Below, in pieces: positions 1,289 to 64,000 of a DNA stretch of 64,000 bases; the stretch's first letter is position 1, and each line of letters opens with the position of its first letter. The translations under genes and the position numbers were made by a program. Origin of the DNA: a virus. The notes below the pieces were generated by a model, which saw nothing but the letters and a program-made list of their open reading frames with translations, was not told the DNA's origin and did not search any database. Location: positions 17,119-81,118 of IMG/VR virus record IMGVR_UViG_3300010399_000036. One strand, written 5' to 3'.

Positions 1289-4228
1289 ATGGCAGTCTCA
1301 TTTCGTGTTACAGGTACATGGGCAGAGCTAATCGCCGATGGCTCTGTTGCGATTCCCGCGACTCCACAAGCAGGCGATCGGATGTACCTGTTTGCGCGCT
1401 GGAAAGATTTCTCGATTACTGCGCAAGTTACCTCACCAGCAGGCTGGACTGAATTAGTAGAGTTTGCTGACGGCTCAACCAGTTCTGGCAATGGGACGGG
1501 CTCTGTGAAAGTTGCTTGTTGGTATCGAGACTGGCAATCCGGAGACACAGACCCGACCATCGACTTTTCTGCAAGCCCAACTACAGCAAGCGCCGTAATC
1601 ATGGTAATGGCGAAAGCTGCGTCTGATTCGTGGCTAACTCCTGTCGCCGTTACTGCGGCAATGACGAATTGGACCACCTCTTCACAAACTGTTTCAGCAA
1701 GTTCTACGGCTAACGTTCTTGGCGGCGGAGTCGTCATGGGGCTGATCGGCATCCGTGATGACACTGCGACGATGACGCGGCCCACTAACGGGATTGACGA
1801 TTCAGCCGGGGCTATTACATGGAATGGAAACTATGTCGAATCTCCTGCAACACATCACTCGACTACTACGGGTGATGATGGCGCGGCAGACCTCGGTTAT
1901 CGGTTGGTAAGCGCGGGAGCAACCGCAACCCTACGCATGACAGGAACGATCTCCGCGGCAGAAACAGGAGCAGCGTTGTGGGTAGTTCAGGGTGTGGAAG
2001 CGAATCTCACTGTTCAGAATTCCAGTCACGCACATGCCGCAGCCAATGTCTCACTGACTCAGGTTCATTCGCTTGTGGTTGCTAATGCTAGTCATGCGCA
2101 GGCTGTCGGCAACATAACTCTCACGCAGGTCCATGGCATTGTTGTGCAAAACGCTTCTCACGCACATACCGCAGGCAGTCCCACGTTGACAGAGGTTTCT
2201 AATCTGACAGTTCAAAACAGTAGTCATGCTCACTCTGTTGAATCACTCACGCTTACTCAAGTTCATGCCCTGACAGTAGCGAACGCGACACATTCACACA
2301 TAGCGCAAAGTCCGAATGCGCGTACATTCCAAATCACCTGGCTCGACCCCGGTGGTGATGCGGTACAAGCAACAGGGTACTTCAACAATGTGATTACCGG
2401 GGCGGTGAGCTACGACGCCACGCACCAAGTTGCTGGAGTTGGTTCGTGGAAGTTTGACTCCGACACTGGGGCAGCGGCTTATGTCGAAGTGCTGGGAGTG
2501 CTGGACGCTAACCGTCGCATTAGCTTCTACTGGCGCTATGACTCGGTGCCGGATCATACGGAGACGAAGACGGAGTTTGCGGACACTAGCACCGTACAGG
2601 ACTATTCGGGTGGTGGGTTTAGTCTCCCCGGCGGTAGTAATAGCTGGAATGTTGATAACGGGGTGTATCACACTGCAACCCCAGCGAAGAACTCCGGTCA
2701 GGGAAATATTTGTACGTTTGCTGCTCTTGATGGCGGTGTCCCACTCTCCGCCGTCATCGACTCGGTAAAGATCATCTATGAGCGCAAGTTCGATGTGAAC
2801 ACCTCTATCGGCATCTCGCGTGTAAAGACGCGCATTGATGGCGTGGAAGGCCCGAACTATGACAACACCGACATGCCGCTGGTGGATACAGTCGTCACCG
2901 TTGACATCACCGCTGAACGGGCGTGGACGCCGCCAGACTTTGCCGCTGACGTGTTTGAAGTGATCGCCGAAGCTCGCCGTGGTGACACTGACACCGCCCA
3001 CACACAAAGTTGGGACTACGTGAAAGTGGAGGTTGTGTATCACTTGCCAGTGGGAATCATCACAGCAAATGATGGTCTAAGCGGCGACGAAGGGTGGCGT
3101 ATTGCAGTCACTCCAAAGGGCGATGGCGTAGTGTTGAGACTTGTCGAAGGTGACTTTAACGCTGGACAGGGAGCGGGCTATGACGGAATTACTGAACTAC
3201 TTGCAAATACACCTTATAGAATCGGCATCGGCTATGTAGTCCACGGTGCTGATGACCTAGAAGTAAAGCTATACATCAACAGTGTTGAGGAACTCTCAAT
3301 TGAGGGGGCTGCTACTGCTAGTAGTGACGGCACTCAGTTAACAGCTCTCCGCTACGGCTGGCTCGGCAACCCCGGTGCCGACCACCTCACATGGTTCACC
3401 CACCTGTACGTTGACGACGGCGACGACCTCACTGACCCCGGCAACAAGCTGACCACGGCTAAACTTCCTGCCTCTGTCAACCAGAACAACTGGACCACGA
3501 CAGGTGGGACTGGCGCGGTGGATGAGCGCCCGCTGAGTGAGACGAACTACAAGCGGCACTCAACCGCCATTGGCACCGTGCGTCAGACCTACACGCTACA
3601 GGATGCCGCTACTGGGGATGTGGACATCAGTGGCGAGACGATTGTCGGCTACATGGCATGGGCATGGGTTGAGGCTGACATCGGAGCGGACAGCGGCTAC
3701 GTCTACTTAGTTGTTAACGGGGAGGACTATGGTAACGAACTTCTGGACAGTCAGTTTGACGAGGTAGTTTCACTGGTCCGTCGCGCTGTCACAACAACCG
3801 CGTATCCATCCGATGCCGACGGTATTGGGGCGGCCTTGATCGACGTGGAAGATTTCACTGTTGTCATCCTCTACGAATGCGGCATCGTCGTCTGCTACGA
3901 AGGCCCTGACACTGACGACCCGCTGTTCCCGTTGCAACTGCTTGCCTCATCGGCCAGCACCAGCGACGATATGGGTGGAACGCCCCCTGCTGAATACGAG
4001 TTGAAGAACACAGTGCTGCCAGCCGCTGGCGCGGTGATGACGACGACGATTAGTTCCCGGACCGCTGAAGGTGAGGTGCCGCAACAGCAGGCTATCATCG
4101 AGACGCAGGGCGGTGACGAGACAGGGATAGTTGTCATCAGTCCCGGCGTGGAGGTAAGCGTAGACATCGACGTATCCGGCACCAACACCAGTGTGGAGTT
4201 GCGACGAGTGGACCAGACGGTAATCTAG
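1289..4228 (+). CDS. large fibre-like virion protein with about 5 HxH repeats of 22 aa and lectin/LamG-like domains
   Basis: 979 aa; N-terminal 'AGD...PAGWT' beta domain, repeats such as LTVQNSSHAHAAANVSLTQVHS, beta-sandwich C-terminal half. Confidence 0.65.
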   Translation: MAVSFRVTGTWAELIADGSVAIPATPQAGDRMYLFARWKDFSITAQVTSPAGWTELVEFADGSTSSGNGTGSVKVACWYRDWQSGDTDPTIDFSASPTTASAVIMVMAKAASDSWLTPVAVTAAMTNWTTSSQTVSASSTANVLGGGVVMGLIGIRDDTATMTRPTNGIDDSAGAITWNGNYVESPATHHSTTTGDDGAADLGYRLVSAGATATLRMTGTISAAETGAALWVVQGVEANLTVQNSSHAHAAANVSLTQVHSLVVANASHAQAVGNITLTQVHGIVVQNASHAHTAGSPTLTEVSNLTVQNSSHAHSVESLTLTQVHALTVANATHSHIAQSPNARTFQITWLDPGGDAVQATGYFNNVITGAVSYDATHQVAGVGSWKFDSDTGAAAYVEVLGVLDANRRISFYWRYDSVPDHTETKTEFADTSTVQDYSGGGFSLPGGSNSWNVDNGVYHTATPAKNSGQGNICTFAALDGGVPLSAVIDSVKIIYERKFDVNTSIGISRVKTRIDGVEGPNYDNTDMPLVDTVVTVDITAERAWTPPDFAADVFEVIAEARRGDTDTAHTQSWDYVKVEVVYHLPVGIITANDGLSGDEGWRIAVTPKGDGVVLRLVEGDFNAGQGAGYDGITELLANTPYRIGIGYVVHGADDLEVKLYINSVEELSIEGAATASSDGTQLTALRYGWLGNPGADHLTWFTHLYVDDGDDLTDPGNKLTTAKLPASVNQNNWTTTGGTGAVDERPLSETNYKRHSTAIGTVRQTYTLQDAATGDVDISGETIVGYMAWAWVEADIGADSGYVYLVVNGEDYGNELLDSQFDEVVSLVRRAVTTTAYPSDADGIGAALIDVEDFTVVILYECGIVVCYEGPDTDDPLFPLQLLASSASTSDDMGGTPPAEYELKNTVLPAAGAVMTTTISSRTAEGEVPQQQAIIETQGGDETGIVVISPGVEVSVDIDVSGTNTSVELRRVDQTVI

Positions 4229-4521: not shown

Positions 4522-7332
4522 GTGGCAAACCCAACCGTCTTCAACGCCATAGCAACCAACCCCGGCGGTACGGGTTCCACTATCACTGTCACGCTCTCCA
4601 CCCACGCGGTCGGCGACCTGCTCATCATCTATGTCGCCAACACCGGCAACGTGCTGTGGACTGGCAACCCCACCGGCTGGTCCCGCATCGACCAGCGCAC
4701 TGTCGGCACCTCCACCAACGGCATCGTCGGCACCTGGCTGTGGCGTAAGGTGGTGTCAGGCGACACTCTGCCACTCACCAACCCACAGTGCACCCTCGGT
4801 GCCACCGTCACGCGCCTCGCTACTTGTCGCACCATTCGCGGCGCAGACCTCGAATCACCGTTCGTCACCCCCAACTACGGCCAGCGCGGCTTCAGCACCG
4901 GGACATCGAACCCTGCTCGTCCACCGACGGTGGTTACTTCAGCGCCAGAGATGCTCGCCCTGCACTGCTACGGCTCACGTGCAGCCACCAACGCGCCTGA
5001 CCCGTCTGGCTACACCGCAGACGCAGAGGCGATAGCCAGCGGAACATTAGTAATTAACGCCGCCAGTCAGGTAATCGCCGACCAGAACACCAGTCTCAGT
5101 AATCAGGATGCGTCACCCACCAGCGGCGCACGCTGGGCCTCAGGCATCATCTGCATTCCAAGCAAGGATTACCCCTACTCTCGTGCCGGGTCACAAGGCA
5201 GCCAGCTCAACGGCACCAGCGTGAACGTCACCTTGCCCACTGGAACCACCAGCAGCGATGTCAACGGCAATAAAGACTTGATTATCGCCACAGTCGAGGC
5301 AGTCGGTACAGCCCCGTCACCCAACAGCCCCGGCGACTGGACTGAAGTTGGCGGCGCGTGGTCAGGAACCACCTCCGGCGGTGCAACCACCATCCGCAAA
5401 TACTGGGCACTGTACGATGGCTCAATAGACGCTCGGTTCAACCGCACTGGGTCAGGGGAAATCAGCGCCTGCCTCACGACCTACTACAACTGCCATCAGA
5501 CTGCGCCGGTGGGATTGTCTGACGCCGATGCTCGCGCTTCATCAACCACTTCGACCTGGGACGCGGTATCACGGAGTTTTACGCACAGTCTTGTGCAAGC
5601 CACTTGTGTTGCCGATGCTGTCCCAACCTTCACTGCCCCTGCTGGATGGACCGAGCGCATGGATGGATTAGGCATTGCCTGCGCTGATCAAACCTTCAAC
5701 GCCACGGGTTCCACGGCGAGCGCGTCGTTCACGCTCTCGACTGCCAGTCCGACGCTGGTGGGTCTGGTGGAGATTAAGAGTCCAACCGGGGTTGGGTCGA
5801 TCGATCTGATAATACAGAACGCGGCGCACTCACACACGGCTGCTAATGCAGTGCTCACCCAAGTCCATGCTTTAGTAATCGCTAACGCTGCTCACAGTCA
5901 CTCAGCGGGGAATATCGCCTTAACTCAAGTTCACGAGCTCGCGGTTCAGAATAGTCTCCACTCGCACTCAGCAACCAGCCCAGTAGTCACACAAGTCCAC
6001 GCACTTACGGTTCAAGGCGGCCCACATGCTCACACCGCTGAAAGTCCAACACTGACTCAAATCCATGTGTTGAGCGTGGCGAGCGGTGTTCATTCGCACT
6101 CCAGTGAGAATGCGGTGCTGGTGCAGGCTCATCAATTGACAGTGAGTAGCGCGACTCACGATCACACCGCTGAGAGCATCGCGCTTACGCAGACTTACAA
6201 CTTAACTATCGCATCGGGAACTCATGCACACTCCAGCGAGAACGTAAGCATAGTCATTGTGTTGGGTGTAGACGCAGCGACTCACGGCCATCTTGCGCAG
6301 AATGTTGACCTAACGCAGGTCCACGAACTTGTCGTCGCAAACGGTGCCCATGCGCATATCGCCGAATCGCCTGCCTTAACACAAACCCACGCGATACAGG
6401 TTGACGATACAAGTCATGCCCATGTGGCAGATTCCACGACCCTGACCCAGGTTCATATCCTGACGGTTGCGGACGCGGTTAACGGTCACACGGCAGCCAG
6501 TTTAAGCCTTATCCAGGTCCACGAGCTCGCCGTCGCCGACAGTGCGCACAGTCACGCAGCCCAGTCGGTCGCGCTCGTTCAGGAACACGCGCTGCAACCT
6601 GCCGACGCGAGCCACGCGCAGACTGCGGACTCGCCAACACTCACACAGGTTCACGCCCTGTCAGTTGCCGATGCTACTCACGGACACTCTGCTGCGTCTC
6701 CATCTCTAACCCAGTCCCACGAACTGGTTGTCGCTTCGACTTTGCATGGACATAGCGCAGAGAATGCCGACGTGAATCAGGCTGCCGTTTTGGTTCTCCA
6801 GAATGCGACCCATGAGCATTCGGCTGAAACGGTAGGGTTAACACAGGCGCATCTGATCGCCATTGATGACGGAGCCCACGCCCACACAGCCGAACACCAG
6901 GTGCTCACTCAGATCCATAACCTTACGATACATAACAGTGCTCACGAGCATTTAACTTCGAGTGTTGTTCTTAGTGCTGCGACTGACCTGATAGTAAGCG
7001 ACGGTGCGCATAGTCATACGGCGGACGGTTTGTCGTTGACACAAACTCAGAACCTAAGCCTCCAATCAGCGGTACACTCACATTCGGCTGATGATCTTGC
7101 TATTTCTCAGGCCCATGGCTTAGCTATTGAGAGCGCAAGCCACGGTCACGTAGCACAAAACGTAGTTTTAGGTTTAGCAAACGCTCTTGTTATTTCCAAT
7201 TCAGTTCATGGACACACGACAAGTGGTGTCTTATTGGTGTGGCCGATACCGATCGATATGTACGTGATACCCGAGAGTTCGCAGTTCATGACGATACCGA
7301 CTTCAAGCCAGATTTTTCAGATTGATCGGTAG
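4522..7332 (+). CDS. large fibre-like virion protein with about 22 HxH repeats of 22 aa
   Basis: 936 aa; two N-terminal 'DL...PxxW' domains, then a continuous LxVxxxxHxHxAxxxxLTQxHx array. Confidence 0.7.
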   Translation: MANPTVFNAIATNPGGTGSTITVTLSTHAVGDLLIIYVANTGNVLWTGNPTGWSRIDQRTVGTSTNGIVGTWLWRKVVSGDTLPLTNPQCTLGATVTRLATCRTIRGADLESPFVTPNYGQRGFSTGTSNPARPPTVVTSAPEMLALHCYGSRAATNAPDPSGYTADAEAIASGTLVINAASQVIADQNTSLSNQDASPTSGARWASGIICIPSKDYPYSRAGSQGSQLNGTSVNVTLPTGTTSSDVNGNKDLIIATVEAVGTAPSPNSPGDWTEVGGAWSGTTSGGATTIRKYWALYDGSIDARFNRTGSGEISACLTTYYNCHQTAPVGLSDADARASSTTSTWDAVSRSFTHSLVQATCVADAVPTFTAPAGWTERMDGLGIACADQTFNATGSTASASFTLSTASPTLVGLVEIKSPTGVGSIDLIIQNAAHSHTAANAVLTQVHALVIANAAHSHSAGNIALTQVHELAVQNSLHSHSATSPVVTQVHALTVQGGPHAHTAESPTLTQIHVLSVASGVHSHSSENAVLVQAHQLTVSSATHDHTAESIALTQTYNLTIASGTHAHSSENVSIVIVLGVDAATHGHLAQNVDLTQVHELVVANGAHAHIAESPALTQTHAIQVDDTSHAHVADSTTLTQVHILTVADAVNGHTAASLSLIQVHELAVADSAHSHAAQSVALVQEHALQPADASHAQTADSPTLTQVHALSVADATHGHSAASPSLTQSHELVVASTLHGHSAENADVNQAAVLVLQNATHEHSAETVGLTQAHLIAIDDGAHAHTAEHQVLTQIHNLTIHNSAHEHLTSSVVLSAATDLIVSDGAHSHTADGLSLTQTQNLSLQSAVHSHSADDLAISQAHGLAIESASHGHVAQNVVLGLANALVISNSVHGHTTSGVLLVWPIPIDMYVIPESSQFMTIPTSSQIFQIDR
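5806..7240 (+). repeat. degenerate 66-bp (22-aa) coding tandem repeat, about 22 copies
   Basis: Counted directly in the translation. Confidence 0.85.
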
Positions 7333-7338
7333 ATTTAT

Positions 7339-7626
7339 ATGGCAGAAGGAACGAGAGTTGATCCCTATATTAAAGACCCGGATTCAATACGGACTTTCGG
7401 CATAGATTGGGCGGCGTTTCTGGGTACGCTAACTTTCAACACTTCCCTATGGACGGTCACGACAGGGTCGGTGGCGATTGACTCAAACACAACCAATACA
7501 ACGTTTTCACTGGTGAAATTAAGTGGGGGCACGGTTGGTGAAAAGTGCGCACTACGAAATCGCGTAACCAGGTCAGACGGAGAGAGAGACGATCAAACCA
7601 TCTACGTGAAGATAAAGGAAAAGTGA
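7339..7626 (+). CDS. phage fibre adaptor-like protein (Gp77-like)
   Basis: KDPD...GIDW...LSGG...RVT..GERDDQTI pattern of small Ig-fold adaptor proteins found near terminase genes. Confidence 0.55.
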   Translation: MAEGTRVDPYIKDPDSIRTFGIDWAAFLGTLTFNTSLWTVTTGSVAIDSNTTNTTFSLVKLSGGTVGEKCALRNRVTRSDGERDDQTIYVKIKEK

Positions 7627-7786
7627 GCGAGTGAATTGGGCTGGTTTCATACTAGGTTTTACGATTGGGAGCCTGGCAACGCTCTTAGTGGTCCGTGTAG
7701 TCGTCTTGTGGAAAGCATATATGAAGATAATGCGCGACACGATACTAAATTTAAGGAAAGCAGTGAGCGACCTTGAGAGCTAGGAA

Positions 7787-52938: not shown

Positions 52939-53639
52939 ATGAGCGAAGTTCATAGATGCTTAATTCTGGATACTGAGACCTCGGGGCTCGAAGATGATGC
53001 GCCCGTGATTGAGGTCGGCGCGATTCTGTATTCCGTCGACAATCAGTGCTCACTCCAAGAATTGTCTACCCTTTTGCCAGCACCCGAAAATGGCGCCGAG
53101 CAAATCAACCGAATAAAGAGTGCGGCACTAAATGAGATCGGCCTAATCGGTTCGAGTTCAATAGAGTGGAGTTGTTGTTTGCTATGAGCAAGTCAGCCGA
53201 TGTGTTCGTGGCCCACAACGCGGAGTTTGACAGCAAGCGGATCTTTGGGCAACCGGACTTTTTACCACTCGCCTCTCTCCCCTGGCTCTGCACGATGTCA
53301 GACTTCAAGTGGCCGCTTGCCACACGCGAACAGGGTTCTTTAATCAACATCGCGTTAGACCACGGAATCGGCGTCGCGAGTGCGCACCGGGCGTTAACAG
53401 ACTGTCGACTTATTGCGGCGCTCTTTGACCGCATGGCTGACTTGCACTCCATGTTTCAGGTTGCCATGCGGCCGAAGGGATTTTTTCAGGCAATTGTGCC
53501 TTTCGAACGGAAAGACGAAGCGAAGGCGGCGGGCTTTAAGTGGAACGGCGCCGACAAAACGTGGACGCGCCAGATGGCAATCGAAGATGCGTCTCAATTG
53601 AAATTTCCCGTTAGACAACTTCAAACATTGGAAAGGTAG
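52939..53639 (+). pseudogene. DEDDh 3'-5' exonuclease (DnaQ-like) split across two frames
   Basis: Exo I LDTETSG in 52939-53187; Exo II VAHNAEFD and Exo III AHRALTD in 53166-53639 (-1 frame). Confidence 0.8.
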
Positions 53640-53653
53640 AGAAATACACAACC

Positions 53654-54787
53654 ATGACATTAAGGATTACACGAGCAACCGACCCAATTACCGTGGAGCG
53701 ATTGGTGCAGTGTATCTACGCCCCTCCGGGGATAGGTAAGACATCGATCGCTTTCACTTCACATAAACCTCTTTTGCTTGACTTCGATGGCGGTGTTCAT
53801 CGTGCGGTATTCAGGCTCGATACTGTCAAAGTCGAAACCTGGGATGACGTTGCGGAGATAAGCGATGACGATCTGCGTCAATACCGAACCTTGATATTTG
53901 ATACAGCCGGTCGCGCTCTGGATGTTCTTTCAACTGACATCATCAAAAAGAACCCAAAGATGGGCCGATCAGGCGGTGCGTTGACTCTACAAGGCTTTGG
54001 CGAACTCAAGGCGCGGTTTATCGCGTTCACACGGATGATCCGATCTTTTGGTCTTGACATAGTATTACTGGCCCACAGTGACGAGCAGAAGAACGGAGAT
54101 GATCTAATCGAACGGATCGATGTTCAGGGCGGATCGAAGAATGAGATTTACAAGGTCGCCGACATGATGGGCCGCCTGTACATTCGGAACGGTAAACGAT
54201 ACCTAAACTTTAATCCCTCTGAAACAGCTTACGGTAAGAACCCCGGACGACTCGGTGAGGTTGAAATCCCTGATCTCCAAAGGGTGGATAACCGCGGTTT
54301 TCTTGGCGAGTTGTCGGACAGGGTTAAGGCCGAGCTGAACAAGTTAACAGCGGAGCAGCAAGAAACCGCAACCGTTCTCGCCGAGTGGCAAATTAAATTC
54401 GATTCGGCCAACACGCCCGATGAATACAACGGGTTTATTCCTGAATTTGGGCAACTACCTGAGGCCGTCAAGCTGAACGTTGGCCGTCTATGGCTCAAGA
54501 TCGGAAAGGGCAAGGGATGGGAGCAGGACAAGGAAACAAAACAGTTCCGGGGCGAACCCGTCGAACCATTCACCCCTATATCGGTTAACGGGAAAGACGG
54601 GATGACCAAGAAGCAGCAGAAGGAGATTGAAGAACTTGCCGAAGAGTTGGAACTTGAAGACGTAGACGCGGAGGCCTCAAAGGTCTTCAGCATGGATCTA
54701 AAAGTTAAGAATCTATCGAAAGAGGGCGCCGAGCGCCTGATCGTAGACCTCAAGACAAAAGCCGATAGCGTGGGGGCGCGATTCTAA
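53654..54787 (+). CDS. AAA_24/Sak4-like recombination ATPase
   Basis: IYAPPGIGKTS, LLLDFDGG, TLIFDTAG, VLLAH, ADMMG. Confidence 0.85.
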   Translation: MTLRITRATDPITVERLVQCIYAPPGIGKTSIAFTSHKPLLLDFDGGVHRAVFRLDTVKVETWDDVAEISDDDLRQYRTLIFDTAGRALDVLSTDIIKKNPKMGRSGGALTLQGFGELKARFIAFTRMIRSFGLDIVLLAHSDEQKNGDDLIERIDVQGGSKNEIYKVADMMGRLYIRNGKRYLNFNPSETAYGKNPGRLGEVEIPDLQRVDNRGFLGELSDRVKAELNKLTAEQQETATVLAEWQIKFDSANTPDEYNGFIPEFGQLPEAVKLNVGRLWLKIGKGKGWEQDKETKQFRGEPVEPFTPISVNGKDGMTKKQQKEIEELAEELELEDVDAEASKVFSMDLKVKNLSKEGAERLIVDLKTKADSVGARF

Positions 54788-55399
54788 ATGCGGCTGAGCG
54801 TTTCCGACCTCCAGTGCTGGCAGCGTTATCGCAAGAATCAAGAGGTAACGCTTGAAGACTGTCTTAGACAGCTTCGCCGTGAAGAGCTGCCGAGTCCGGC
54901 TTTATTGGCCGGCAGAAAACTTCACAAGGCACTGGAGTCGGCACAGTACGATCAGGATGATGTAAGTCCTTTCGGTCAATCAGTCCTTAAGTACAAAGAC
55001 TACGTGTTCATTTTTCAATGTGACGTTGAAATCTCAATTCCGCAGGTGCGTGAGCTCAAAGGGGAAATGCTCGTTGAGACTAGCACTGGTCCTGTAACGC
55101 TAGTTGGTGTCGTGGATTCTGTCGACGTGTCGGTTTCTGATTACAAGTTAACCGGCCACTTCGATTCTGAGCGACTGATCGCTTCTTATCAGTGGCGTTG
55201 CTACCTGCAAATGTTTCAGCGACATCGGTTTGATTACAAAGTATTCGTTGGCGAAGAAATCAAACCAAAAGAGTGGGCCATTAAGGATTATCACGAACTC
55301 TCTGTGTATGGCTATCCAGGTATGGAGCAGGATATTCAACGAGAAGTCGGAGAGTGCGCGAGATTTATGCGTGAGCATGTATGGCCCAAGGCGGCGTGA
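54788..55399 (+). CDS. PD-(D/E)XK exonuclease-like protein
   Basis: G..LHKALE, LVGVVD...DYK, SYQWRCYL. Confidence 0.75.
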   Translation: MRLSVSDLQCWQRYRKNQEVTLEDCLRQLRREELPSPALLAGRKLHKALESAQYDQDDVSPFGQSVLKYKDYVFIFQCDVEISIPQVRELKGEMLVETSTGPVTLVGVVDSVDVSVSDYKLTGHFDSERLIASYQWRCYLQMFQRHRFDYKVFVGEEIKPKEWAIKDYHELSVYGYPGMEQDIQREVGECARFMREHVWPKAA

Positions 55400-55404
55400 C
55401 GATC

Positions 55405-55599
55405 TTTGCGCGGATCAGGGTTTTTCGCTGGATCAAACCAGCAAAGGGTACTTAGGTATCCTCTGGCCAAAAACTTCAGGTTCGCGCAAAACTAAAGATT
55501 CCTTTGGCGACTCCATGATCTTAGTGCTGGTCCACCGGAAAGCCACGGCCGCCATATGTTGCGTCAGGCTTGACTTTGGCGGTAGGAGAGAAACCGCCA
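55405..55599 (+). ncRNA. structured RNA modules, proximal part of the array
   Basis: TTTGCGCGGATC/GGTTCGCGCAAA multibranch unit (55405-55490); TGGCGGT-AGGAGAGAA-ACCGCCA hairpin. Confidence 0.5.
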
Positions 55600-55621
55600 C
55601 TTCTGGAAACGAGAGACTGCA

Positions 55622-55777
55622 ATGATCTGCACAGAATGTAAAGACGTGATTCCTTTTTACGAAGAGGATCACAACCCGTTTGACGAGAACGACGCCAACA
55701 TAACGGCCATACTCGGATCGGTTGACTGTTTTGAACGCTATCTGCAACGACAATCGCAGAACAGTTATTTGAATTGA
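55622..55777 (+). CDS. small hypothetical protein (51 aa, CxxC)
   Basis: MICTECKDVIPF...GSVDCFERYL. Confidence 0.45.
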   Translation: MICTECKDVIPFYEEDHNPFDENDANITAILGSVDCFERYLQRQSQNSYLN

Positions 55778-55788
55778 GTTTCCACAAA

Positions 55789-57020
55789 GGGCTGAGTAGC
55801 GCGCGGAGACTGAGGCCGAAACGCGTGAAGCCCAAAACACTTGCTGAGCGATGAACGTGATCGATACTGCTGAGCCTCAGACAGACGGCAAGTGCTTCGA
55901 GAGTATAGAGACTCGACGGCCTGAATAGTTACAAGATCGGGACTGTTGGAACCGTGAGGGCTAACGCAGGGTAATCGGCATTACGAAGTGGCCGAGGAAA
56001 CGGGACGCCTAACCCGTCAAAACCTCAACGTCGGGGAAGTCGGAGCACCGACACGGAAAGACGTGACTTACGCCGGATGGAGAGAATCCGGCACTGGTAT
56101 TTGAAGTTCGGTGAACCCTGATGCGGGGCGCCGCAAGGAAGGCTCAAGGGCTGGAGCGGGTCGTACTCGGCAGGGATTCAGGGGCTGGATTCCTTAGTCC
56201 GGAGTTTTCGGCCCCTGTCTAAATCTTTGAAAAGTTTGCGCGGCTGATTAGAGGCATCTGGAAACCACGCGGTTGTGGGACATGGCCGTAAGAGCGTCGC
56301 TAAAAAGGTGGGTTAAGCGCTACGCTCCCTCAAAACCAGATGACCGATTGTTTCGTGGGTTGATACATGGTCCATCGGCCTGTTAGCCGCGCAAAAGAAA
56401 TCTTGAGTCGCCCGTGTTGATTTGTTGAGATGGCCTCAACCAGCACGGACGTTAGACCACCAGCGCCTAGCACTAAGACGCTGATAATCCTGTAAGGGTT
56501 TTGTGCTTACCGATAAGGGGCGTGGTTCGGGGTGATCGGACAGAAGCGTAGGCGTTGTCCGGCGACTCAGGGTTCTTTGAAGATTCTCCGTTTCGTGCTT
56601 GTGCTGGCCGAGTAGTAGTCGCGAGAGCTCGTCGTACCGAATGAAACGAAGTCGGCGCTAGACGGGAAGATGTTACGAACCAAGCGCAAGGGGGCACACG
56701 GCGACGGTTCCGCTCTGCGACGCGTTAACGCTCGATGAGCCGCTAAATAGCGCAGAGACTCTTGCGGCGAGACGGAGAAGTTTTATGGGCGGCGATTTGA
56801 ACACACAAGCCGAACGTCAGAAATGTTCTTCTGAAAAGTGGTCGGAAGTGGGTCCAACCTCGTAGCAACAAGGTCGCCGCCCGCCCAAGTTAGCGGCGCA
56901 TTGATTCGCGTTTGCTGTTGTAAATCCAGAAGGGAGCAGTAAACGCGATCATAAAGAGAGAAGCTGGCGAATTTCTTTTCTTGCGGGGGGTTGTGAGCGG
57001 AGGAGTTCGCTGGCTCTCTT
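55789..57020 (+). ncRNA. tandem array of structured non-coding RNA modules
   Basis: No credible ORF over 1.2 kb; successive units closed by GC-rich stems with G-U pairs and GNRA loops on the + strand. Confidence 0.7.
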
Positions 57021-57145
57021 GAAAACACCTAACCGAACCAGGGGAAATCAAAATCAAGGGGAAAAAAGTGCATCGTGGGATCTCAATTAGTGTGCTCAAA
57101 AATAAACTTTCACTTCATGCTTTCATGTTCTCAGTTCTTAAAAAC

Positions 57146-57281
57146 GCTCGTTGGCGACCGAGCAATAGAATCAAGTGTCGAGCCTCTTTTGTGTAGAGGC
57201 GCCTTCTGGACATGTCGTTACTTGATTCCGGCGTGAACACCAGGTCGCCAGGCGTCTCTACAAAGAAGAGGCTTTTCTCTT
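57146..57281 (+). promoter_or_regulatory. attenuator/antisense-type RNA switch before the initiator gene
   Basis: 24-bp hairpin plus T-rich tail; its loop is complementary to two upstream boxes. Confidence 0.55.
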
Positions 57282-57629
57282 TTGAAGGAAAAATTACCCG
57301 CTGTTCTTTGGTACGCGAGCGATTGGCTGGGCAGTAACACGCGAGCGCGAATGACCTACCAGCAAAGGGACGTTTATCTCACGCTTTTATTTCGCTCCTG
57401 GTACGAAGAACCTGCGGGCACCTTACCAAACATTCCTGAAGAGTTAGCAATGATGGGCGGTATCGACCTTGAAACATGGGAACGAATCAACGGTCCAATT
57501 ATAGCGAAGTTTCAGAGCGACGGGAATGGCCGTATCTTCAATCCTCGCATGTTGAAAGAGGCGCGGAAGGCTCGCGGCAGACGGGTTGCCGGGGCGACTG
57601 GCGGCAAGCAAAAGGCTAGCAAACAGTGA
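57282..57629 (+). CDS. YdaU/DUF1376-like replication initiator N-terminal domain
   Basis: PA..WYASDWL......MT..QR.VY..LL..SW....GTLP...EELA...IFNPRM..E. Confidence 0.8.
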   Translation: MKEKLPAVLWYASDWLGSNTRARMTYQQRDVYLTLLFRSWYEEPAGTLPNIPEELAMMGGIDLETWERINGPIIAKFQSDGNGRIFNPRMLKEARKARGRRVAGATGGKQKASKQ

Positions 57630-57697
57630 AGCAAAACTCTAGCAAAAGTGTTAGCAAAATCGTAGCAAACCGCTTAGCAAAACTCCGACTTTTGCTA
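57607..57697. repeat. iterons, putative replication origin
   Basis: AGCAAA at 57607, 57618, 57630, 57641, 57653, 57664, 57676 (11/12 bp period) and inverted TTTTGCTA at 57690. Confidence 0.8.
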
Positions 57698-57762: not shown

Positions 57763-58668
57763 ATGGGTATTACTTCATACAAAGATCACCCCTTGTCTGA
57801 GCTTCTCCCTTTGATGGAAGACGATCAGATTGAGGATCTAGCAACGGATATTCGACAAAACGGATTACGAGCCCCAATAACTCTCTACGAAAATAAGATC
57901 CTCGATGGGCGCAATCGTTATCGCGCGTGCAAAATCGCGAACGTTGAGCCTAAGGTCCGCCACTTCACCGCTGGCGATGCGGTTGCGTTTATTGTTTCCG
58001 CCAACGTCTTTCGGCGCCACTTGACCTCAAGCCAGCGGGCAATAGTCGCCGCGAAACTCGCCAATCTTTCAAACGGGCAGCACAAAACAAGCTCGGCAAT
58101 ATTGCCGAGCTCAAAACCCATCACACAGATAGAGGCGGCGAAAGAATTAAAAGTTAGCGAAAGATCCGTCAGGACCGCCAGGGAGGTGCTACGCGACGCG
58201 CCGACGAAAGAGGTAGAAGCAATTGAGCGCGGAGAAAAAACAATAGCAACGGTGGCGAGAGAAACCAAAGCCAAGACAACTAAACCACGGGTCGAGGTTG
58301 AGCAGGAAAAGCATCTCGACAAGACCGGCTACGTTATTCCCGACTCAATCCTCGAAGACTGGCAAACCGCTGAATCCTTTCGATCAACGCTCTCCGAGCT
58401 GCAACGAATCAAGCTCCTGGTTGAGAAGGCAATTGATAATCGCGAATTGATCTATCGGGAGGTAGGGCAGGACACAGTTGCGGATCTTAAGAACGCATGG
58501 ACTGCCTTGAAACAGGTATTGCCCTATGCGGTCTGTCCGACGTGTCAGGGCCGTACCCGTTCAAAGTGTTCCGTTTGTAAGCAACGAGGGTTTGTTAGCG
58601 AGTTTGGATACACACACTGGTTTGCAAAAGAAGTTATTGAGTTGAGGGAAAAGGCGATTAAGAGATGA
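57763..58668 (+). CDS. ParB/Srx-like N-terminal domain protein with HTH and C-terminal Zn finger
   Basis: HPL..LLPLM...DI..NGL..PI.LY..KILDGRNRYRAC; N..RRHLT.SQRA; CPTC..CSVC. Confidence 0.85.
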   Translation: MGITSYKDHPLSELLPLMEDDQIEDLATDIRQNGLRAPITLYENKILDGRNRYRACKIANVEPKVRHFTAGDAVAFIVSANVFRRHLTSSQRAIVAAKLANLSNGQHKTSSAILPSSKPITQIEAAKELKVSERSVRTAREVLRDAPTKEVEAIERGEKTIATVARETKAKTTKPRVEVEQEKHLDKTGYVIPDSILEDWQTAESFRSTLSELQRIKLLVEKAIDNRELIYREVGQDTVADLKNAWTALKQVLPYAVCPTCQGRTRSKCSVCKQRGFVSEFGYTHWFAKEVIELREKAIKR

Positions 58669-60320
58669 GCACGCTTCGCGATTATCAGCAAGAGGCGGTG
58701 ACAGCCGTTTTCTCGGAATGGCAGGAGCGAAATAGCACTTTAGTTGTGTGCCCAACCGGAACAGGTAAAACGCAAATCTTTTGTGACGTGATCCGAAAAA
58801 TGCAACCAAAACGTGCGATGGTTCTAGCCCACCGGGGAGAACTAATTACACAGGCGGTTAATCGGCTGGCTAATGATTTTAGTATACGCGCCGACATAGA
58901 AATGGCCGATTTCACAGCCGACGAGTTTTATCACAATCGAGCTCCTGTAGTTGTATCAACAATTCAAACTCAATGCGCCGGGAATGGCGGTCACGGACGA
59001 ATGAAGATTTTCGATCCGCAAGACTTTGGGTTAGTAATTTGCGACGAGGCCCACCATTACACAAGCCCTTCATTTCGGAGAGTGCTCGACTACTACAAAC
59101 AGAATCCTGAATTGAAAATCCTCGGAGTAACCGCAACCCCTGATCGCGCAGACGAGCAAGCCCTGGGCCAAGTCTTCGAGAGCGTTGCTTATGACTATGA
59201 AATTCTCGACGCAATACACGATGGCTGGCTTGTTCCGGTAGATCAGAAGATGGTCCATATCGAGGGACTGGACTTTTCCCAAATCCGAACTACGGCAGGC
59301 GATCTGAACGGAGCCGATCTGGCGGCTGTTATGGAGGCCGAAAAGAATCTACAGGGGATCGCGGCGGCGTCTATCGACATTATCGGGGAAGACAAACGAA
59401 CCCTTGTTTTCACCGTCACCGTAAAGCAGGCAGAGATGCTTGCGGAGATCTTTAACCGCCATCGCCCGGGCATGGCGGATTGGATCTGTGGTAAGACGCC
59501 AAAACCCGAGCGTCATCGAATCTTTAAAGACTTCGATACGGGACGGATTCAGGTGTTAGTGAACGTCGGTGTTGCGACGGAAGGGTATGACAATCCAAGG
59601 GTTGAAGTAATTGTCCAGGGTAGACCAACAAAATCCCGCTGTCTCTACGCGCAGATTATCGGCCGCTCATTACGCCCATTGAAAGGAGTTGTTGACGGAA
59701 TCGATGAGGCAGAAGGACGGAAAGAAGCTATTGCTCTCAGTGCCAAACCATCAGCCTTAGTGCTGGACTTCGTAGGCAACGCAGGCAGACACAAATTAAT
59801 GACGACCGCCGACATTCTCGGGGGCAAAGTCAGCGAGCAGGCCATTGCGCGAGCCACTGAAGAGGCAAAGAAATCTGGCAAAGCAATCCGTATGGACCAG
59901 GCGCTTGACGAGGCCGAGCGAGACATTCAGCGGGAAATTGAAGAACGCAGAAGGCGAGAAGCCGCTCGTAAGGCCCATCTAGTCGCGACCGCCCGGTTCA
60001 GCACAAAGACGATCAGCCCGTTCGATGTATTCGAGCTGAAGCCAGCGAAAGAGCGCGGGTGGGATTCTGGAAAACACCTTTCTGAGAAGCAAAGAGCTTG
60101 TCTCATTAAACAGGGAATAGATCCTAGCAAGGTCGGCTACGCACAGGGAAAACAATTGTTAGGGGAGATTTTCAAGCGATGGTCCAATGATCGATGCAGC
60201 TTCAAACAGGCAAAGATCTTGAAGACCAGGGGCTACTCGATAGATGTGTCGAGAGATGAGGCGAAGAAGATTATTGATGAGATAGCGCTGAAAGAGCGCT
60301 GGTCAAGGAGATACGCATGA
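58665..60320 (+). CDS. superfamily 2 DEAH helicase
   Basis: LRDYQ, PTGTGKT, DEAHH, TATP, TEGYDNP, QIIGR. Confidence 0.93.
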   Translation: MSTLRDYQQEAVTAVFSEWQERNSTLVVCPTGTGKTQIFCDVIRKMQPKRAMVLAHRGELITQAVNRLANDFSIRADIEMADFTADEFYHNRAPVVVSTIQTQCAGNGGHGRMKIFDPQDFGLVICDEAHHYTSPSFRRVLDYYKQNPELKILGVTATPDRADEQALGQVFESVAYDYEILDAIHDGWLVPVDQKMVHIEGLDFSQIRTTAGDLNGADLAAVMEAEKNLQGIAAASIDIIGEDKRTLVFTVTVKQAEMLAEIFNRHRPGMADWICGKTPKPERHRIFKDFDTGRIQVLVNVGVATEGYDNPRVEVIVQGRPTKSRCLYAQIIGRSLRPLKGVVDGIDEAEGRKEAIALSAKPSALVLDFVGNAGRHKLMTTADILGGKVSEQAIARATEEAKKSGKAIRMDQALDEAERDIQREIEERRRREAARKAHLVATARFSTKTISPFDVFELKPAKERGWDSGKHLSEKQRACLIKQGIDPSKVGYAQGKQLLGEIFKRWSNDRCSFKQAKILKTRGYSIDVSRDEAKKIIDEIALKERWSRRYA

Positions 60321-61126
60321 GCGACCGCTGGTATCGAGTCAACAAGAAACGCCCTTGTGCGATCTGCCGCCGCCCTGATTGGTGTACCTATACAGAAAAC
60401 GCCGCGTGTTGTATGCGCGTTAAGTCTGAGAAAGAACTACGAAACGGGGGATGGCTGCACCGAACATCAGAACCACTACCGAGAGTCGCTCCGATAAGAA
60501 AGGCTATTGATGTACCGGCTTTGGACGCTGATCGGTTGTGGCGCCGATGGTTTGAACTAACCGACACCAAGGCGCTTGACGAGTTTGGAATGTCGTTAGG
60601 TGTTGACACTGACTGCTTAAAAGCAATTGGCTGCGCGTGGTCTAGTTTCAGCGCTTGGGCGTTTCCCATGTCGGATGCAAACGGAAAAGTAATTGGCATC
60701 AGACTCAGGAATAACGCTGGCGACAAATGGGCTGTCAGGGGTTCAAAGTCAGGGCTATTTATTCCTGCGGATTATTCGCACATGCAAGATGGGGTTTGTT
60801 ACTTGGTGGAAGGGCCAACAGACTTAGCGGCGGCAATGACAATCGGATTAAAAGCAATCGGTAGAGCTGCCTGCTTGGGCCAAGAGCCGATGATCCTTGA
60901 TTACGTGAGACGAAACAGAGTCGAGCGGCTAGTTATCGTAACGGACAACGACGATCCGGGATTACGAGGAGCGGAAAAACTGCAATCAATGCTGCCGATT
61001 CTTAGTTGCGTGTGGGTTCCACCAACAAAGGACATCAGAGAGTTTGTGAATCTTGGAGGGCGATACGCGGCAATGCAGGCATGTTTAAAGGATTTAGTTT
61101 GGACCAGGGCGAGGAGAGCGGCATGA
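60317..61126 (+). CDS. DNA primase (Zn-binding + TOPRIM)
   Basis: PCAIC..PDWC, LVEGPTD, VTDNDDPG, KDIRE. Confidence 0.88.
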   Translation: MSDRWYRVNKKRPCAICRRPDWCTYTENAACCMRVKSEKELRNGGWLHRTSEPLPRVAPIRKAIDVPALDADRLWRRWFELTDTKALDEFGMSLGVDTDCLKAIGCAWSSFSAWAFPMSDANGKVIGIRLRNNAGDKWAVRGSKSGLFIPADYSHMQDGVCYLVEGPTDLAAAMTIGLKAIGRAACLGQEPMILDYVRRNRVERLVIVTDNDDPGLRGAEKLQSMLPILSCVWVPPTKDIREFVNLGGRYAAMQACLKDLVWTRARRAA

Positions 61127-63055: not shown

Positions 63056-64000
63056 ATGGGAACCGGAATTCAATGGACTGATGAAGTGTGGAATTGCGTG
63101 CGCGGCTGTTCGCGCGTGTCTGCCGGATGCGGCGATTCGACTGGCGGCGGATGCTATGCAGAGCGCCAAGCGTATCGATTCAGCGGGCCGGGAATGCCAT
63201 ACGAGGGCTTGGTGAGAATGACATCAAAAGGCCCACGATGGACCGGCAAGGTTGTTCTTGTCGAAGAAAAGCTTAACGATCCGCTGCATTGGAAAAAGCC
63301 GCGCCGCATCTTCGTCAACTCGATGTCGGATCTGTTCCACGAGTCACTTAGCTTCGGTCAAATCTTCCGCGTGTTGATGGTTATGCAGCAGTGCCCGCAG
63401 CATGAGTTCCAAGTGCTCACAAAACGACCCGCTCGTATGAAAGAATTCTTCGAGTGGTTAACTATCTGGGGCATTCCAACCGCGTTGGCAATGGGCTTTT
63501 CTGAGTATTACGAGTGGCCGTATCCAAACGTCTGGCTCGGCATCAGTTGCGAAGATCAAAACTCATTTGACGAACGCTGGCCGTACCTCCGCGACACTCC
63601 CACATGGACACGCTGGCTCAGCCTGGAACCGCTATTAGGACCAATCAACGCGCGTTCGGCTCTAATTGAAGATCACTACTACTGCGACGTGAGTGTTGAC
63701 CCTGATGATCCAACACCAGCGCATCGCTGTTCGCCGCCTGCTAATTGGGTTGTCGTTGGCGGTGAGAGCGGCCCAAACGCAAGACCGATGCATCCTGATT
63801 GGGCGCGTTCACTTCGGGATCAGTGTGTAAGTGCGGGCGTTCCGTTCTTCTTCAAACAATGGGGAGAGTGGGCGCCTGTGATTCGAAACGGAGTGACGTA
63901 CTCGGAAGGGGCCGGTACACACGGCGCGTACTTTGAGGACGGTAAATGGGTGACATTCAGACGCGGTGCCGCGCACGGAGAAGTATTCAGGCTTGGCAAG
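63056..64000 (+). CDS. phage Gp37/Gp68 (DUF5131) protein, 3' end outside window (absent from ORF track)
   Basis: IQWTD..WN...GC..VS.GC...CYAE, IFVNSMSDLFH, LTKRP, WVVVGGESG..ARPM...W...LRDQC...VPFFFKQWG in one frame. Confidence 0.92.
   Translation, partial: MGTGIQWTDEVWNCVRGCSRVSAGCGDSTGGGCYAERQAYRFSGPGMPYEGLVRMTSKGPRWTGKVVLVEEKLNDPLHWKKPRRIFVNSMSDLFHESLSFGQIFRVLMVMQQCPQHEFQVLTKRPARMKEFFEWLTIWGIPTALAMGFSEYYEWPYPNVWLGISCEDQNSFDERWPYLRDTPTWTRWLSLEPLLGPINARSALIEDHYYCDVSVDPDDPTPAHRCSPPANWVVVGGESGPNARPMHPDWARSLRDQCVSAGVPFFFKQWGEWAPVIRNGVTYSEGAGTHGAYFEDGKWVTFRRGAAHGEVFRLGK

What the first reader, a model, noticed from the sequence alone, without database searches (positions are those of the whole stretch)
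55405..57020. Tandem array of about ten self-closed structured ncRNA modules in the replication operon
Seen in sequence: an otherwise densely coding operon has about 1.6 kb with only one 51-aa ORF. It parses into back-to-back units, each closed by its own terminal stem: 55405-55490 (TTTGCGCGGA/TTCGCGCAAA), 55789-55833 (GGGCT/AGCCC), 55838-55894 (CACTTGCTG/CGGCAAGTG), a hairpin-dense block at 55940-56218, 56235-56395 (TTTGCGCGGCTGA/TTAGCCGCGCAAA), 56404-56569 (TGAGTCGCC/GGCGACTCA), 56584-56779 (TTCTCCGTTTCG/CGAGACGGAGAA), 56787-56882 (GGGCGGCGATTT/AGGTCGCCGCCC), 56902-56951 and 56954-57020. The larger units are multibranched, with GNRA tetraloops and G-U pairs that only work on the + strand. 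Short A/T-rich linkers separate them, and none is a tRNA. Inference: a polycistronic precursor processed into a panel of different 50-200 nt RNAs, laid out like a phage tRNA array. Possible roles are protein sponges, anti-defence decoys or antitoxin mimics, or ribozymes. This is the best candidate here for an undescribed system.
Basis: partly seen in the sequence, partly recalled or inferred. Interest (0 to 1): 0.9.

Follow-up and report, generated by a model that had tools for sequence, protein, structure and literature searches.

The report
Phage array of folded noncoding RNAs
A temperate phage of soil Acidobacteria has, between its recombination and replication genes, a nearly gene-free stretch of about 1.9 kb that folds into a string of separately closed RNA domains; related phages share some of them as shuffled cassettes, and one holds an exact 37-base copy of the host's cell-division (mraZ) control site, but nothing has been tested at the bench.

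Summary
Window 55400-57281 has no long ORF under any stop-codon recoding, no tRNA and no Rfam match. Its only gene is a real 51-aa small-protein gene (55622-55777).

The stretch folds far better than shuffles: local-fold sum z = -4.6, against -1.8 to +1.1 for nine coding controls. It has 12 uninterrupted helices of at least 12 bp, against 2.7 expected. The + strand is favoured.

No full homolog exists, so large-scale covariation could not be tested. Patchy homology to related phages does support real, modular elements:
- The boundary motifs are conserved.
- One closing helix differs at 5 of 11 pairs, all compensatory.
- A family of elements closed by UUUGCGCG...CGCGCAAA occurs in three phages, and module order is shuffled.
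- A relative carries a tRNA in the same slot.

New here: 56834-56870 is identical to the invariant mraZ operator/leader of the host family (Pyrinomonadaceae). It is not attP, which is a tRNA-Lys fragment beside the integrase.

Verdict: probably a genuine, undescribed, cassette-like array of structured RNAs that ends in an attenuator before the replication gene. Processing and function are unproven.

The scan had noted MraZ-operator look-alikes and RNA cassettes in other phages, but not this DNA.

The parts
55405..55490 (+). Module A. An 86-nt element closed by UUUGCGCGGAUC/GGUUCGCGCAAA, directly after the stop codon of the 203-aa gene. It belongs to the family closed by UUUGCGCG...CGCGCAAA.
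   Evidence: z = -5.6 and -5.4 on + against -3.3 on -. Helix listed. A roughly 90% identical copy in a soil run differs at two unpaired bases, by one G-U to A-U change, and by single- and 3-base deletions.
55622..55777 (+). Small protein gene of 51 aa with a CxxC motif. This copy has a 17-aa internal in-frame deletion relative to its homologs.
   Evidence: Three homologs at 49-63% identity. Alignment A1.
55782..55991 (+). It is preceded by the linker motif UAUUUGAAUUGAGUUUCC.
   Evidence: Parse. z = -2.2 on + against -0.2 on -. The linker matches L002 7212-7230.
56023..56229 (+). Hairpin-dense block of two local domains, 56023-56128 and 56134-56229.
   Evidence: z = -2.5 and -1.6 on +, which is weak for each alone.
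56235..56395 (+). Module B. A 161-nt multibranched domain closed by a 14-bp helix of the UUUGCGCG...CGCGCAAA family. It is preceded by the linker AUCUUUGAAAAG.
   Evidence: (z = -2.9). The 5' border is 91% identical to L002 7349-7371 (E = 5e-4).
56399..56574 (+). Module X. A 176-nt domain closed by the 14-bp helix AAUCUUGAGUCGCC/GGCGACUCAGGGUU.
   Evidence: MFE -79 kcal/mol, z = -5.8 on +. Helix.
56584..56779 (+). Module C. A 196-nt domain closed by a 13-bp helix. It is preceded by the linker UUCUUUGAAGA.
   Evidence: Helix. Its own z is only -0.6. L002 7226-7345 has the same border motif, the same conserved segment (90%) and a closing helix with 5 compensatory changes in 11 pairs and none broken.
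56786..56883 (+). Module closed by GGGCGGCGAUUU/AGGUCGCCGCCC. It carries the copy of the host mraZ operator/leader.
   Evidence: z = -2.3 on + against -5.1 on -.
56834..56870 (+). A 37-nt block identical to the host mraZ promoter-proximal operator/leader. It covers boxes 2 and 3 of the GTGGK-N5 repeats plus the 18 nt that follow.
   Evidence: 100% identity to host genomes, E about 5e-11 per genome. Its 25-nt core occurs in more than 120 Pyrinomonadaceae/Blastocatellia MAGs (two contig-end copies in G226), between a promoter and mraZ. Short contigs at depth 100-180 in soil runs. The core is absent from other IMG/VR contigs.
56902..57020 (+). Two strong, strand-specific hairpins, 56902-56951 and 56954-57020.
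   Evidence: z = -5.9 and -6.1 on + against -2.6 and -1.8 on -.
57021..57145 (+). A/T-rich spacer without structure; it may hold a promoter.
   Evidence: GC 0.45. Sliding-window z is positive here. No consensus promoter was found.
57146..57281 (+). Hairpin complex that ends in a terminator-like stem plus U-tract, which overlaps the TTG start of the DUF1376 gene. Read as an attenuator or translational gate.
   Evidence: 24-bp inverted repeat. Terminator-like site at 57254-57272. z = -4.9. A patch matches the equivalent large hairpin in L002.

Best explanation
What it is: a variable accessory slot of a temperate Pyrinomonadaceae phage, lying between the recombination genes (Sak4-like, 203-aa protein) and the replication genes (DUF1376, iterons, ParB-like, helicase, primase). 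In this phage the slot holds not small protein genes but a chain of independently folding RNA domains on the + strand.

How it most likely works (inferred):
1. The early/replication operon transcribes it into one long RNA.
2. Each domain folds as it is transcribed and is clamped by its own 12-17-bp terminal helix.
3. The helices and the A/U-rich linkers (consensus about UCUUUGAA) are the likely cutting sites for host RNase III and RNase E, which would release stable RNAs of 50-200 nt.
4. The last hairpin plus U-tract gates read-through and translation of the replication initiator gene.
5. The domains behave as exchangeable cassettes among related phages.

One cassette displays an exact copy of the host's invariant mraZ operator/leader. 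Most simply this docks or titrates host MraZ on the phage DNA. Alternatively it mimics the host leader as RNA. Either way it would tie the phage to the host's cell-division control.

Shown: lack of coding, excess structure, strand bias, patchy conservation with compensatory changes, and identity to the host site. Inferred: transcription, processing, and all functions.
For: - No ORF under any stop-codon recoding, no tRNA and no Rfam family.
- Region-level folding z = -4.6 against -1.8 to +1.1 for coding controls.
- 12 long helices against 2.7 expected, with G-U pairs that fit the + strand. 12 of 15 units fold better on +.
- Patchy homology to the same slot of L002 lies at module borders, and module order is different there.
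- Closing helix of module C against L002: 6 pairs the same, 5 compensatory, none broken.
- Four elements in three phages share the outer helix UUGCGCG/CGCGCAA, and the inner pairs vary but always pair.
- The slot in L004 is also highly structured on + (z = -8.3 from 15 shuffles against -3.5 on -) and holds a tRNA.
- The 37-nt block is identical to the host mraZ operator/leader.
- The true attP lies elsewhere.
- The phage encodes no MraZ- or AbrB-like protein of its own.
- Terminator-like hairpin at the DUF1376 start.
Against: - The compensatory evidence rests on two to four sequences and on registers that I chose.
- Three or four units are no better than shuffles.
- The region-level z is as strong on the minus strand, so part of the signal is strand-neutral inverted repeats.
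- Related phages L005 and L168 have ordinary genes or unstructured DNA at this place, so the array is not a conserved feature of the group.
- No promoter was found.
- The phage copy has only two of the host's three MraZ boxes. That module folds better on the minus strand.
Confidence: 0.5

Rival explanations
1. It is a DNA-level control region, not an RNA array. The stretch would be a docking platform for host and phage DNA-binding proteins (the MraZ operator copy, perhaps accessory origin functions next to the iterons). The inverted repeats would act as DNA, or as hairpins in single-stranded replication intermediates.
For: - The only part with an identified counterpart is a DNA operator of the host. 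MraZ boxes are described in PMC8475190.
- The region lies about 330 bp upstream of conserved iterons and beside the initiator, helicase and primase genes.
- The region-level z is equal on both strands.
- Earlier notes of this scan describe phage non-coding islands with host operator look-alikes (unchecked leads).
Against: - No DnaA boxes, and no second MraZ-type array beyond chance.
- Long helices extend through G-U pairs that work on the + strand only, and most units fold better on +.
- Stems whose arms lie 60-200 nt apart, with compensatory changes, are not how double-stranded operators are built.
- 1.5 kb is large for an accessory origin.
Confidence: 0.2
2. It is mosaic debris. The hypervariable slot would hold decayed remains of accessory genes and recombination joints, together with a few ordinary terminators and stabiliser hairpins, and would have no collective function.
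For: - Relatives carry different contents here: SSB plus small ORFs in L002, dense genes in L005.
- The one ORF left has an internal deletion.
- No homolog of most of the gap exists.
- Some units are no better than chance.
Against: - Decayed genes should fold like coding controls, with z near 0, not -4.6.
- There is no translated similarity to any neighbour's genes or to PHROGs.
- Borders and closing helices are conserved with compensatory changes.
- Phage genomes rarely keep 1.5 kb of useless DNA (general knowledge).
- In two soil runs the pieces of the gap are 99-100% identical while flanking gene pieces are 80-82%. Sampling there is sparse and biased.
Confidence: 0.15
3. It is one or two very large ornate RNAs of the GOLLD/ROOL kind, in which the 'modules' are subdomains of a single functional fold, not separately released RNAs.
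For: - It is phage-borne, several hundred to 1500 nt, multibranched and without an ORF, and a relative has a tRNA in the slot.
- Long-range complementarity exists, for example 55807-55821 with 56206-56220.
Against: - No match to GOLLD, ROOL or any Rfam model even at E = 10.
- Modules occur singly, in a different order and at other positions in relatives. That fits autonomous cassettes, not one fold.
Confidence: 0.1

Closest known systems
GOLLD and ROOL large ornate RNAs of phages and prophages (Rfam RF01998, RF03087; cryo-EM preprint 10.1101/2024.12.08.627333, found)
   Same: Carried by a phage, without an ORF, hundreds of nucleotides long and multibranched. Often found near tRNA genes, and relative L004 has a tRNA in the same slot.
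   Different: No similarity to either covariance model. Here the structure is a chain of separately closed domains that move as cassettes, not one conserved fold.
Small stable RNAs in the phage T4 tRNA gene cluster (RNA C and RNA D), cut from a polycistronic precursor (own knowledge)
   Same: A run of structured RNAs back to back in one transcription unit, with short linkers.
   Different: This array has no tRNAs. It has much larger domains (up to 200 nt), lies in the replication module, and its processing has not been shown.
RNase III processing hairpins between the early genes of phage T7, and the long-range stems that flank 16S and 23S rRNA in precursors (own knowledge)
   Same: Terminal double-stranded stems that enclose or separate functional units of a long transcript.
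   Different: T7 sites are single hairpins of about 60 nt between protein genes. Here the enclosed units are themselves non-coding. Cleavage has not been tested.
MraZ boxes at the mraZ (dcw operon) promoter: direct repeats bound by MraZ in E. coli, and AAAGTG[T/G] repeats in Mollicutes (PMC8475190, which cites Eraso 2014 and Fisunov 2016)
   Same: The block at 56834-56870 is letter for letter the host's own site. It contains AAAGTGG and GAAGTGG, that is GTGGT-N5-GTGGG, in the host's spacing.
   Different: Two boxes, not the host's three. No mraZ gene and no recognisable promoter nearby. It is embedded in a stem-closed module on a phage. Binding has not been tested.
Leader attenuators and terminators upstream of the replication initiator genes of plasmids and phages (own knowledge)
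   Same: A strong hairpin plus U-tract overlaps the start codon of the DUF1376 gene (57181-57281).
   Different: This accounts only for the last 130 nt of the region.

Membership tests
GOLLD / ROOL / other Rfam large RNAs | A match to the family's covariance model at its gathering score | tested here: not met
   cmscan of the whole window at gathering score gave 0 matches. 55300-57400 at E up to 10 gave only noise of 20 bits or less.
GOLLD / ROOL / other Rfam large RNAs | Carried by a phage or prophage, without an ORF, several hundred nt long, multibranched | tested here: met
Phage tRNA array | Units are tRNAs with a cloverleaf and an anticodon | tested here: not met
   ARAGORN found none in the window, and Rfam gave no tRNA match. 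Relative L004 does have one tRNA in the slot.
MraZ operator | Three or more direct GTGG-type repeats with 10-bp periodicity | tested here: not met
   The host has GTGGT-N5-GTGGT-N5-GTGGG. The phage has only the last two.
MraZ operator | The sequence is the site found at the host's mraZ promoter | tested here: met
   37 of 37 identical to host genomes. The site lies between a promoter and a gene that matches Pfam MraZ at 1.3e-21.
MraZ operator | It is bound by MraZ | not testable with these tools
   Needs a gel shift or ChIP.
attP of the phage integrase | It lies beside the integrase gene and is identical to the host attB | tested here: not met
   The integrase is at record 1683-2855. The tRNA-Lys 3' fragment at record 2968-3022 matches 276 of 301 host-family genomes. 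The mraZ block lies about 8-10 kb away.
MITE / repeat element | Many copies with shared terminal inverted repeats in host or phage genomes | tested here: not met
   Only the mraZ core matched in 5 + 301 host genomes. The terminal stems differ between modules. The motifs are confined to the gap.
RNase III / RNase E processed polycistronic RNA | Discrete RNA ends at the stems and linkers | not testable with these tools
   Needs RNA data from an infection or an induced lysogen (one search lists only DNA runs).
Intrinsic terminator / attenuator (57181-57281 only) | A G+C-rich stem followed by a U-tract | tested here: met

The most novel reading that the evidence does not exclude
The slot is a toolkit of exchangeable structured-RNA cassettes that this group of Acidobacteria phages swaps in and out as other phages swap small accessory genes. 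At least one cassette is a decoy or recruiter built from an exact copy of the host's MraZ operator/leader. That would let the phage sense or disable the master regulator of the host's division and cell-wall operon without encoding any protein for the purpose.
Probability: 0.2. Interest if true: 0.85.

Novelty: new variant of a known kind. Interest (0 to 1): 0.62.

Why it matters
Accessory functions of phages are almost always looked for among small proteins. A 1.5-kb slot filled with autonomous folded RNA domains, shuffled between relatives like gene cassettes, would point to an RNA-based accessory repertoire in soil phages that gene callers cannot see.

The exact copy of the host's mraZ control site is a concrete, testable link between a phage and the conserved but poorly understood MraZ regulator of bacterial cell division. 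A paper search for MraZ with prophage and operator found no paper on phage-borne MraZ sites.

The work also assigns a host (Pyrinomonadaceae, a family with few cultured members) and an attachment site to an uncultured 81-kb phage. It uncovers a conserved structured mraZ leader in that family that matched no Rfam family.

Tried and rejected
**Readings tested and rejected**
- Alternative genetic codes (TGA=W, TAG=Q, TAA=Q) give no long ORF.
- Pseudogenes: tblastx against the relatives' slots and a PHROG scan of the short ORFs gave nothing.
- attP reading of the mraZ block: a tRNA-Lys attP lies beside the integrase.
- CsrA-type sponge: GGA and ANGGA motifs are not enriched.
- DnaA boxes: none in the gap.
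- MraZ-type box pairs: the single exact pair, plus one-mismatch pairs of uncertain excess across the window (18 vs 9.2 expected).
- Phage-encoded MraZ/AbrB or Ro (TROVE) proteins: none found.
- Promoter upstream of the mraZ block or elsewhere in the gap: none found by the consensus scan.

**Homolog searches that found nothing**
- Phage GenBank collection.
- IMG/VR and JGI metagenomes through the flanking proteins and the 51-aa protein. These gave relatives that lack the gap.
- 301 host-family genomes with the gap DNA.
- 401 host-family genomes with the DUF1376 protein. No integrated relatives were found in those searched.
- The 25-nt core in IMG/VR.

**Tools and limits**
- Public runs: no RNA holder is listed. 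Only low-depth, near-identical DNA pieces turned up in soil and rhizosphere runs. Parts of the stretch without cover there say nothing.
- A covariance model of the UUUGCGCG-closed family was not built, because MAFFT misaligned the four members.
- The tallies include a few unpublished genomes: G178 and G237 in both, and G018, G022, G037, G148, G235 and G287. No conclusion depends on them.

Full report
**Context**

The window is bases 17119-81118 of an 81,118-bp virus record. The two ends of the record split one DUF5131 gene, so the genome is circular or circularly permuted.

The finding lies in a rightward replication and recombination module:
- exonuclease-like gene, 53166-53639
- Sak4-like AAA_24 gene, 53654-54787
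- 203-aa phrog_34697 gene, 54788-55399
- the gap
- DUF1376 'primosomal' gene, 57282-57629
- TAGCAAAA iterons, 57607-57685
- ParB-like gene, 57763-58668
- helicase, 58665-60320
- Toprim primase, 60317-61126
- methyltransferase

**The observation**

From 55400 to 57281 the only sizeable + strand ORF is 55622-55777. Reading TGA, TAG or TAA as sense opens nothing. The short ORFs of both strands have no PHROG match. There is no tRNA and no Rfam match.

The 51-aa ORF is real. It has three homologs at 49-63% identity, and the window copy lacks 17 internal residues.

The quoted terminal stems are all present.

**Is it more than chance?**

- The summed energy of the best non-overlapping local folds (span up to 230) gives z = -4.6 on + and -5.0 on -. 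Nine coding stretches of the same length give -1.8 to +1.1.
- Uninterrupted helices of at least 12 bp that allow G-U on the + strand number 12, against 2.7 +/- 1.8 in shuffles (0 of 300) and 1-4 in coding controls. Read for the minus strand there are 5, against 1.45.
- Three of the four perfect Watson-Crick cores lengthen by 3-5 pairs through + strand G-U, and none lengthens through the minus-strand equivalent.
- 12 of 15 units fold better on +.
- Units differ in strength. Five have z between -4.9 and -6.1, and three are no better than shuffles.

**Relatives**

Searches through the flanking proteins found five IMG/VR relatives and several metagenome relatives. The DUF1376 protein is 74-87% identical in the close ones. 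None has blastn or tblastx similarity across the gap at ordinary thresholds.

The slot varies between phages:
- L005 has dense genes there.
- L002 has an SSB gene followed by about 870 nt of small ORFs or hairpins.
- L004 has about 1.8 kb that is also strongly structured on the + strand (z = -8.3 from only 15 shuffles, against -3.5 on -). It begins with a tRNA.

**Patchy homology**

A more permissive comparison found short matches between the window gap and the L002 slot, all at module borders:

| Window | L002 | Identity | Note |
|---|---|---|---|
| 56223-56245 | 7349-7371 | 91% (E = 5e-4) | linker AUCUUUGA plus 5' arm UUUGCGCGGCU |
| 56594-56614 | 7234-7254 | 90% | inside module C |
| 55766-55784 | 7212-7230 | 84% | linker motif |
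| 57246-57258 | 7768-7780 | 12 of 13 (E 3.2, not significant alone) | inside the large terminator hairpins that precede DUF1376 in both phages |

The order of modules differs: C' then B' in L002, against B, X, C in the window.

- **Module C.** Anchored on the conserved segment, its closing helix and that of its L002 counterpart share 6 of 11 pairs. They differ on both sides at the other 5, and none is broken.
- **The UUGCGCG/CGCGCAA family.** Four elements share this outer helix: window A and B, L002 7362-7423, and L005 2999-3081 (the last is followed by a run of eight U). Their interiors differ in size, with spans of 62-159 nt. Their inner helix pairs vary but always pair.

This is small-sample covariation with registers that I chose, but it argues for selected structure and cassette-like behaviour.

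**The host link**

Laying soil and rhizosphere runs on the region showed low-depth, near-identical pieces of the phage. It also showed short contigs at depth 100-180 that cover only 56834-56870 and have variable flanks.

The 25-nt core occurs in more than 120 Pyrinomonadaceae/Blastocatellia MAGs, usually once per genome. In them it lies between a TTGACA-N17-TAGTAT promoter and a gene that starts MLRGNYTARID, which Pfam calls MraZ at 1.3e-21.

The host element reads GGGTGGTC AAAAGTGGTC GGAAGTGGGTC, that is GTGGK three times with 5-nt spacers. This is the layout of MraZ boxes, and it contains the Mollicutes motif AAAGTG[T/G] (PMC8475190).

The element is also enclosed by an RNA helix, GGGUGGUC/GGCCACCC. 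That helix is kept in 80 of 80 sequences, with only wobble-compatible one-sided changes. No Rfam family matches it.

The phage block is 37 of 37 identical to several host genomes. It holds boxes 2 and 3 plus the 18 nt that follow, in the sense orientation, inside the module closed by GGGCGGCGAUUU/AGGUCGCCGCCC.

It is not attP. The tyrosine integrase lies at record 1683-2855. Next to it, record 2968-3022 is the 3' part of tRNA-Lys(CTT), which matches 276 of 301 host-family genomes.

Nothing else in the gap matches host genomes. The core is in no other IMG/VR contig. The phage has no MraZ/AbrB-like gene.

**Interpretation**

The best reading is an accessory slot that holds autonomous structured RNA domains on the + strand. 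It would be transcribed with the operon, probably processed at the closing helices and A/U-rich linkers, and it ends in a terminator-like attenuator that overlaps the TTG start of the DUF1376 gene. One cassette brings in the host's MraZ site.

The data cannot decide whether that site acts as DNA (docking or titrating MraZ) or as RNA (mimicking the leader). Two boxes out of three, and a better fold on the minus strand for that module, are points against a simple operator or a simple mimic.

The rivals are a DNA-level control region, mosaic debris, or one giant ornate RNA. Each explains fewer of the observations, but none is excluded, because there is no expression data and no deep alignment.

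**Earlier notes of this scan**

Earlier notes, used as unchecked leads, list MraZ-operator look-alikes in the non-coding DNA of several unrelated phages, and swapped RNA cassettes beside phage tRNAs. They fit the reading given here but were not tested here, and none concerns this DNA. I confirmed the hairpin and its terminator-like tail, but not the proposed RNA switch.

**Limits**

- The tallies include a few unpublished genomes, on which no conclusion depends.

Noticed in passing
L154:1683-3022 (record coordinates, left of the window): A tyrosine integrase gene (minus strand, 390 aa) lies beside a fragment of about 50 nt identical to the 3' part of host tRNA-Lys(CTT). This is the phage attP. 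It places the host in the Pyrinomonadaceae; the best matches are G226, G121 and G002.
   Followed up: yes
window 57600-57690: Iterons (TAGCAAAA-type, four or more copies at 11-12-nt spacing) lie at the end of the DUF1376 gene. They are 82-92% conserved even in distant relatives (L006, L170-L172) whose DUF1376 proteins are only 25-30% identical. This is probably the replication origin.
   Followed up: partly
host loci L008-L127, e.g. L010:3072-3177 (minus strand): Pyrinomonadaceae and Blastocatellia have a nearly invariant mraZ leader of about 95 nt. It holds three MraZ-type boxes enclosed by an 8-bp RNA helix that is kept in 80 of 80 sequences. No Rfam family matches it. It may be an undescribed cis-regulatory RNA overlapping the operator.
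   Followed up: partly
L004:379-520: Relative phage L004 has a 75-nt tRNA (ARAGORN calls it Ser, anticodon ACU; Rfam tRNA 68 bits). About 60 nt downstream lies a perfect antisense copy of about 20 nt of its anticodon arm, so the two can form a long hairpin. There is a weak, sub-threshold YrlA-like match (27.6 bits, E = 0.0034).
   Followed up: no
window 55622-55777: The 51-aa CxxC protein belongs to a small family. Its three homologs (68-86 aa) carry an extra stretch, TVHVVFKDGHVE.RCHH, that the window copy has lost through an in-frame deletion.
   Followed up: partly
window 57145-57164 (minus strand): A terminator-like hairpin plus UUUUU lies on the minus strand, inside the leader of the DUF1376 gene. 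It could end a short antisense (countertranscript-like) RNA against the leader of the replication gene. No promoter for such an RNA was found.
   Followed up: no
window 63056-64000 and L154:1-75: The record's two ends cut one DUF5131 gene in two without any overlap, so the 'linear' record is really a circular or circularly permuted genome.
   Followed up: yes
L005:2999-3100: An 83-nt element closed by UUGCGCGAGUGU/GCACUCGCGCAA (z = -3.8) is followed by a run of eight U and then a TTGACA hexamer. It lies about 5 kb from the DUF1376 gene. The element family is therefore not tied to one position and may act as a terminator there.
   Followed up: partly
window 55390-55423: Contigs of 1.5 kb at depth 7-17 in three soil runs align here with 7 gaps. 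This is probably a chance or low-complexity resemblance to an unrelated abundant gene.
   Followed up: no
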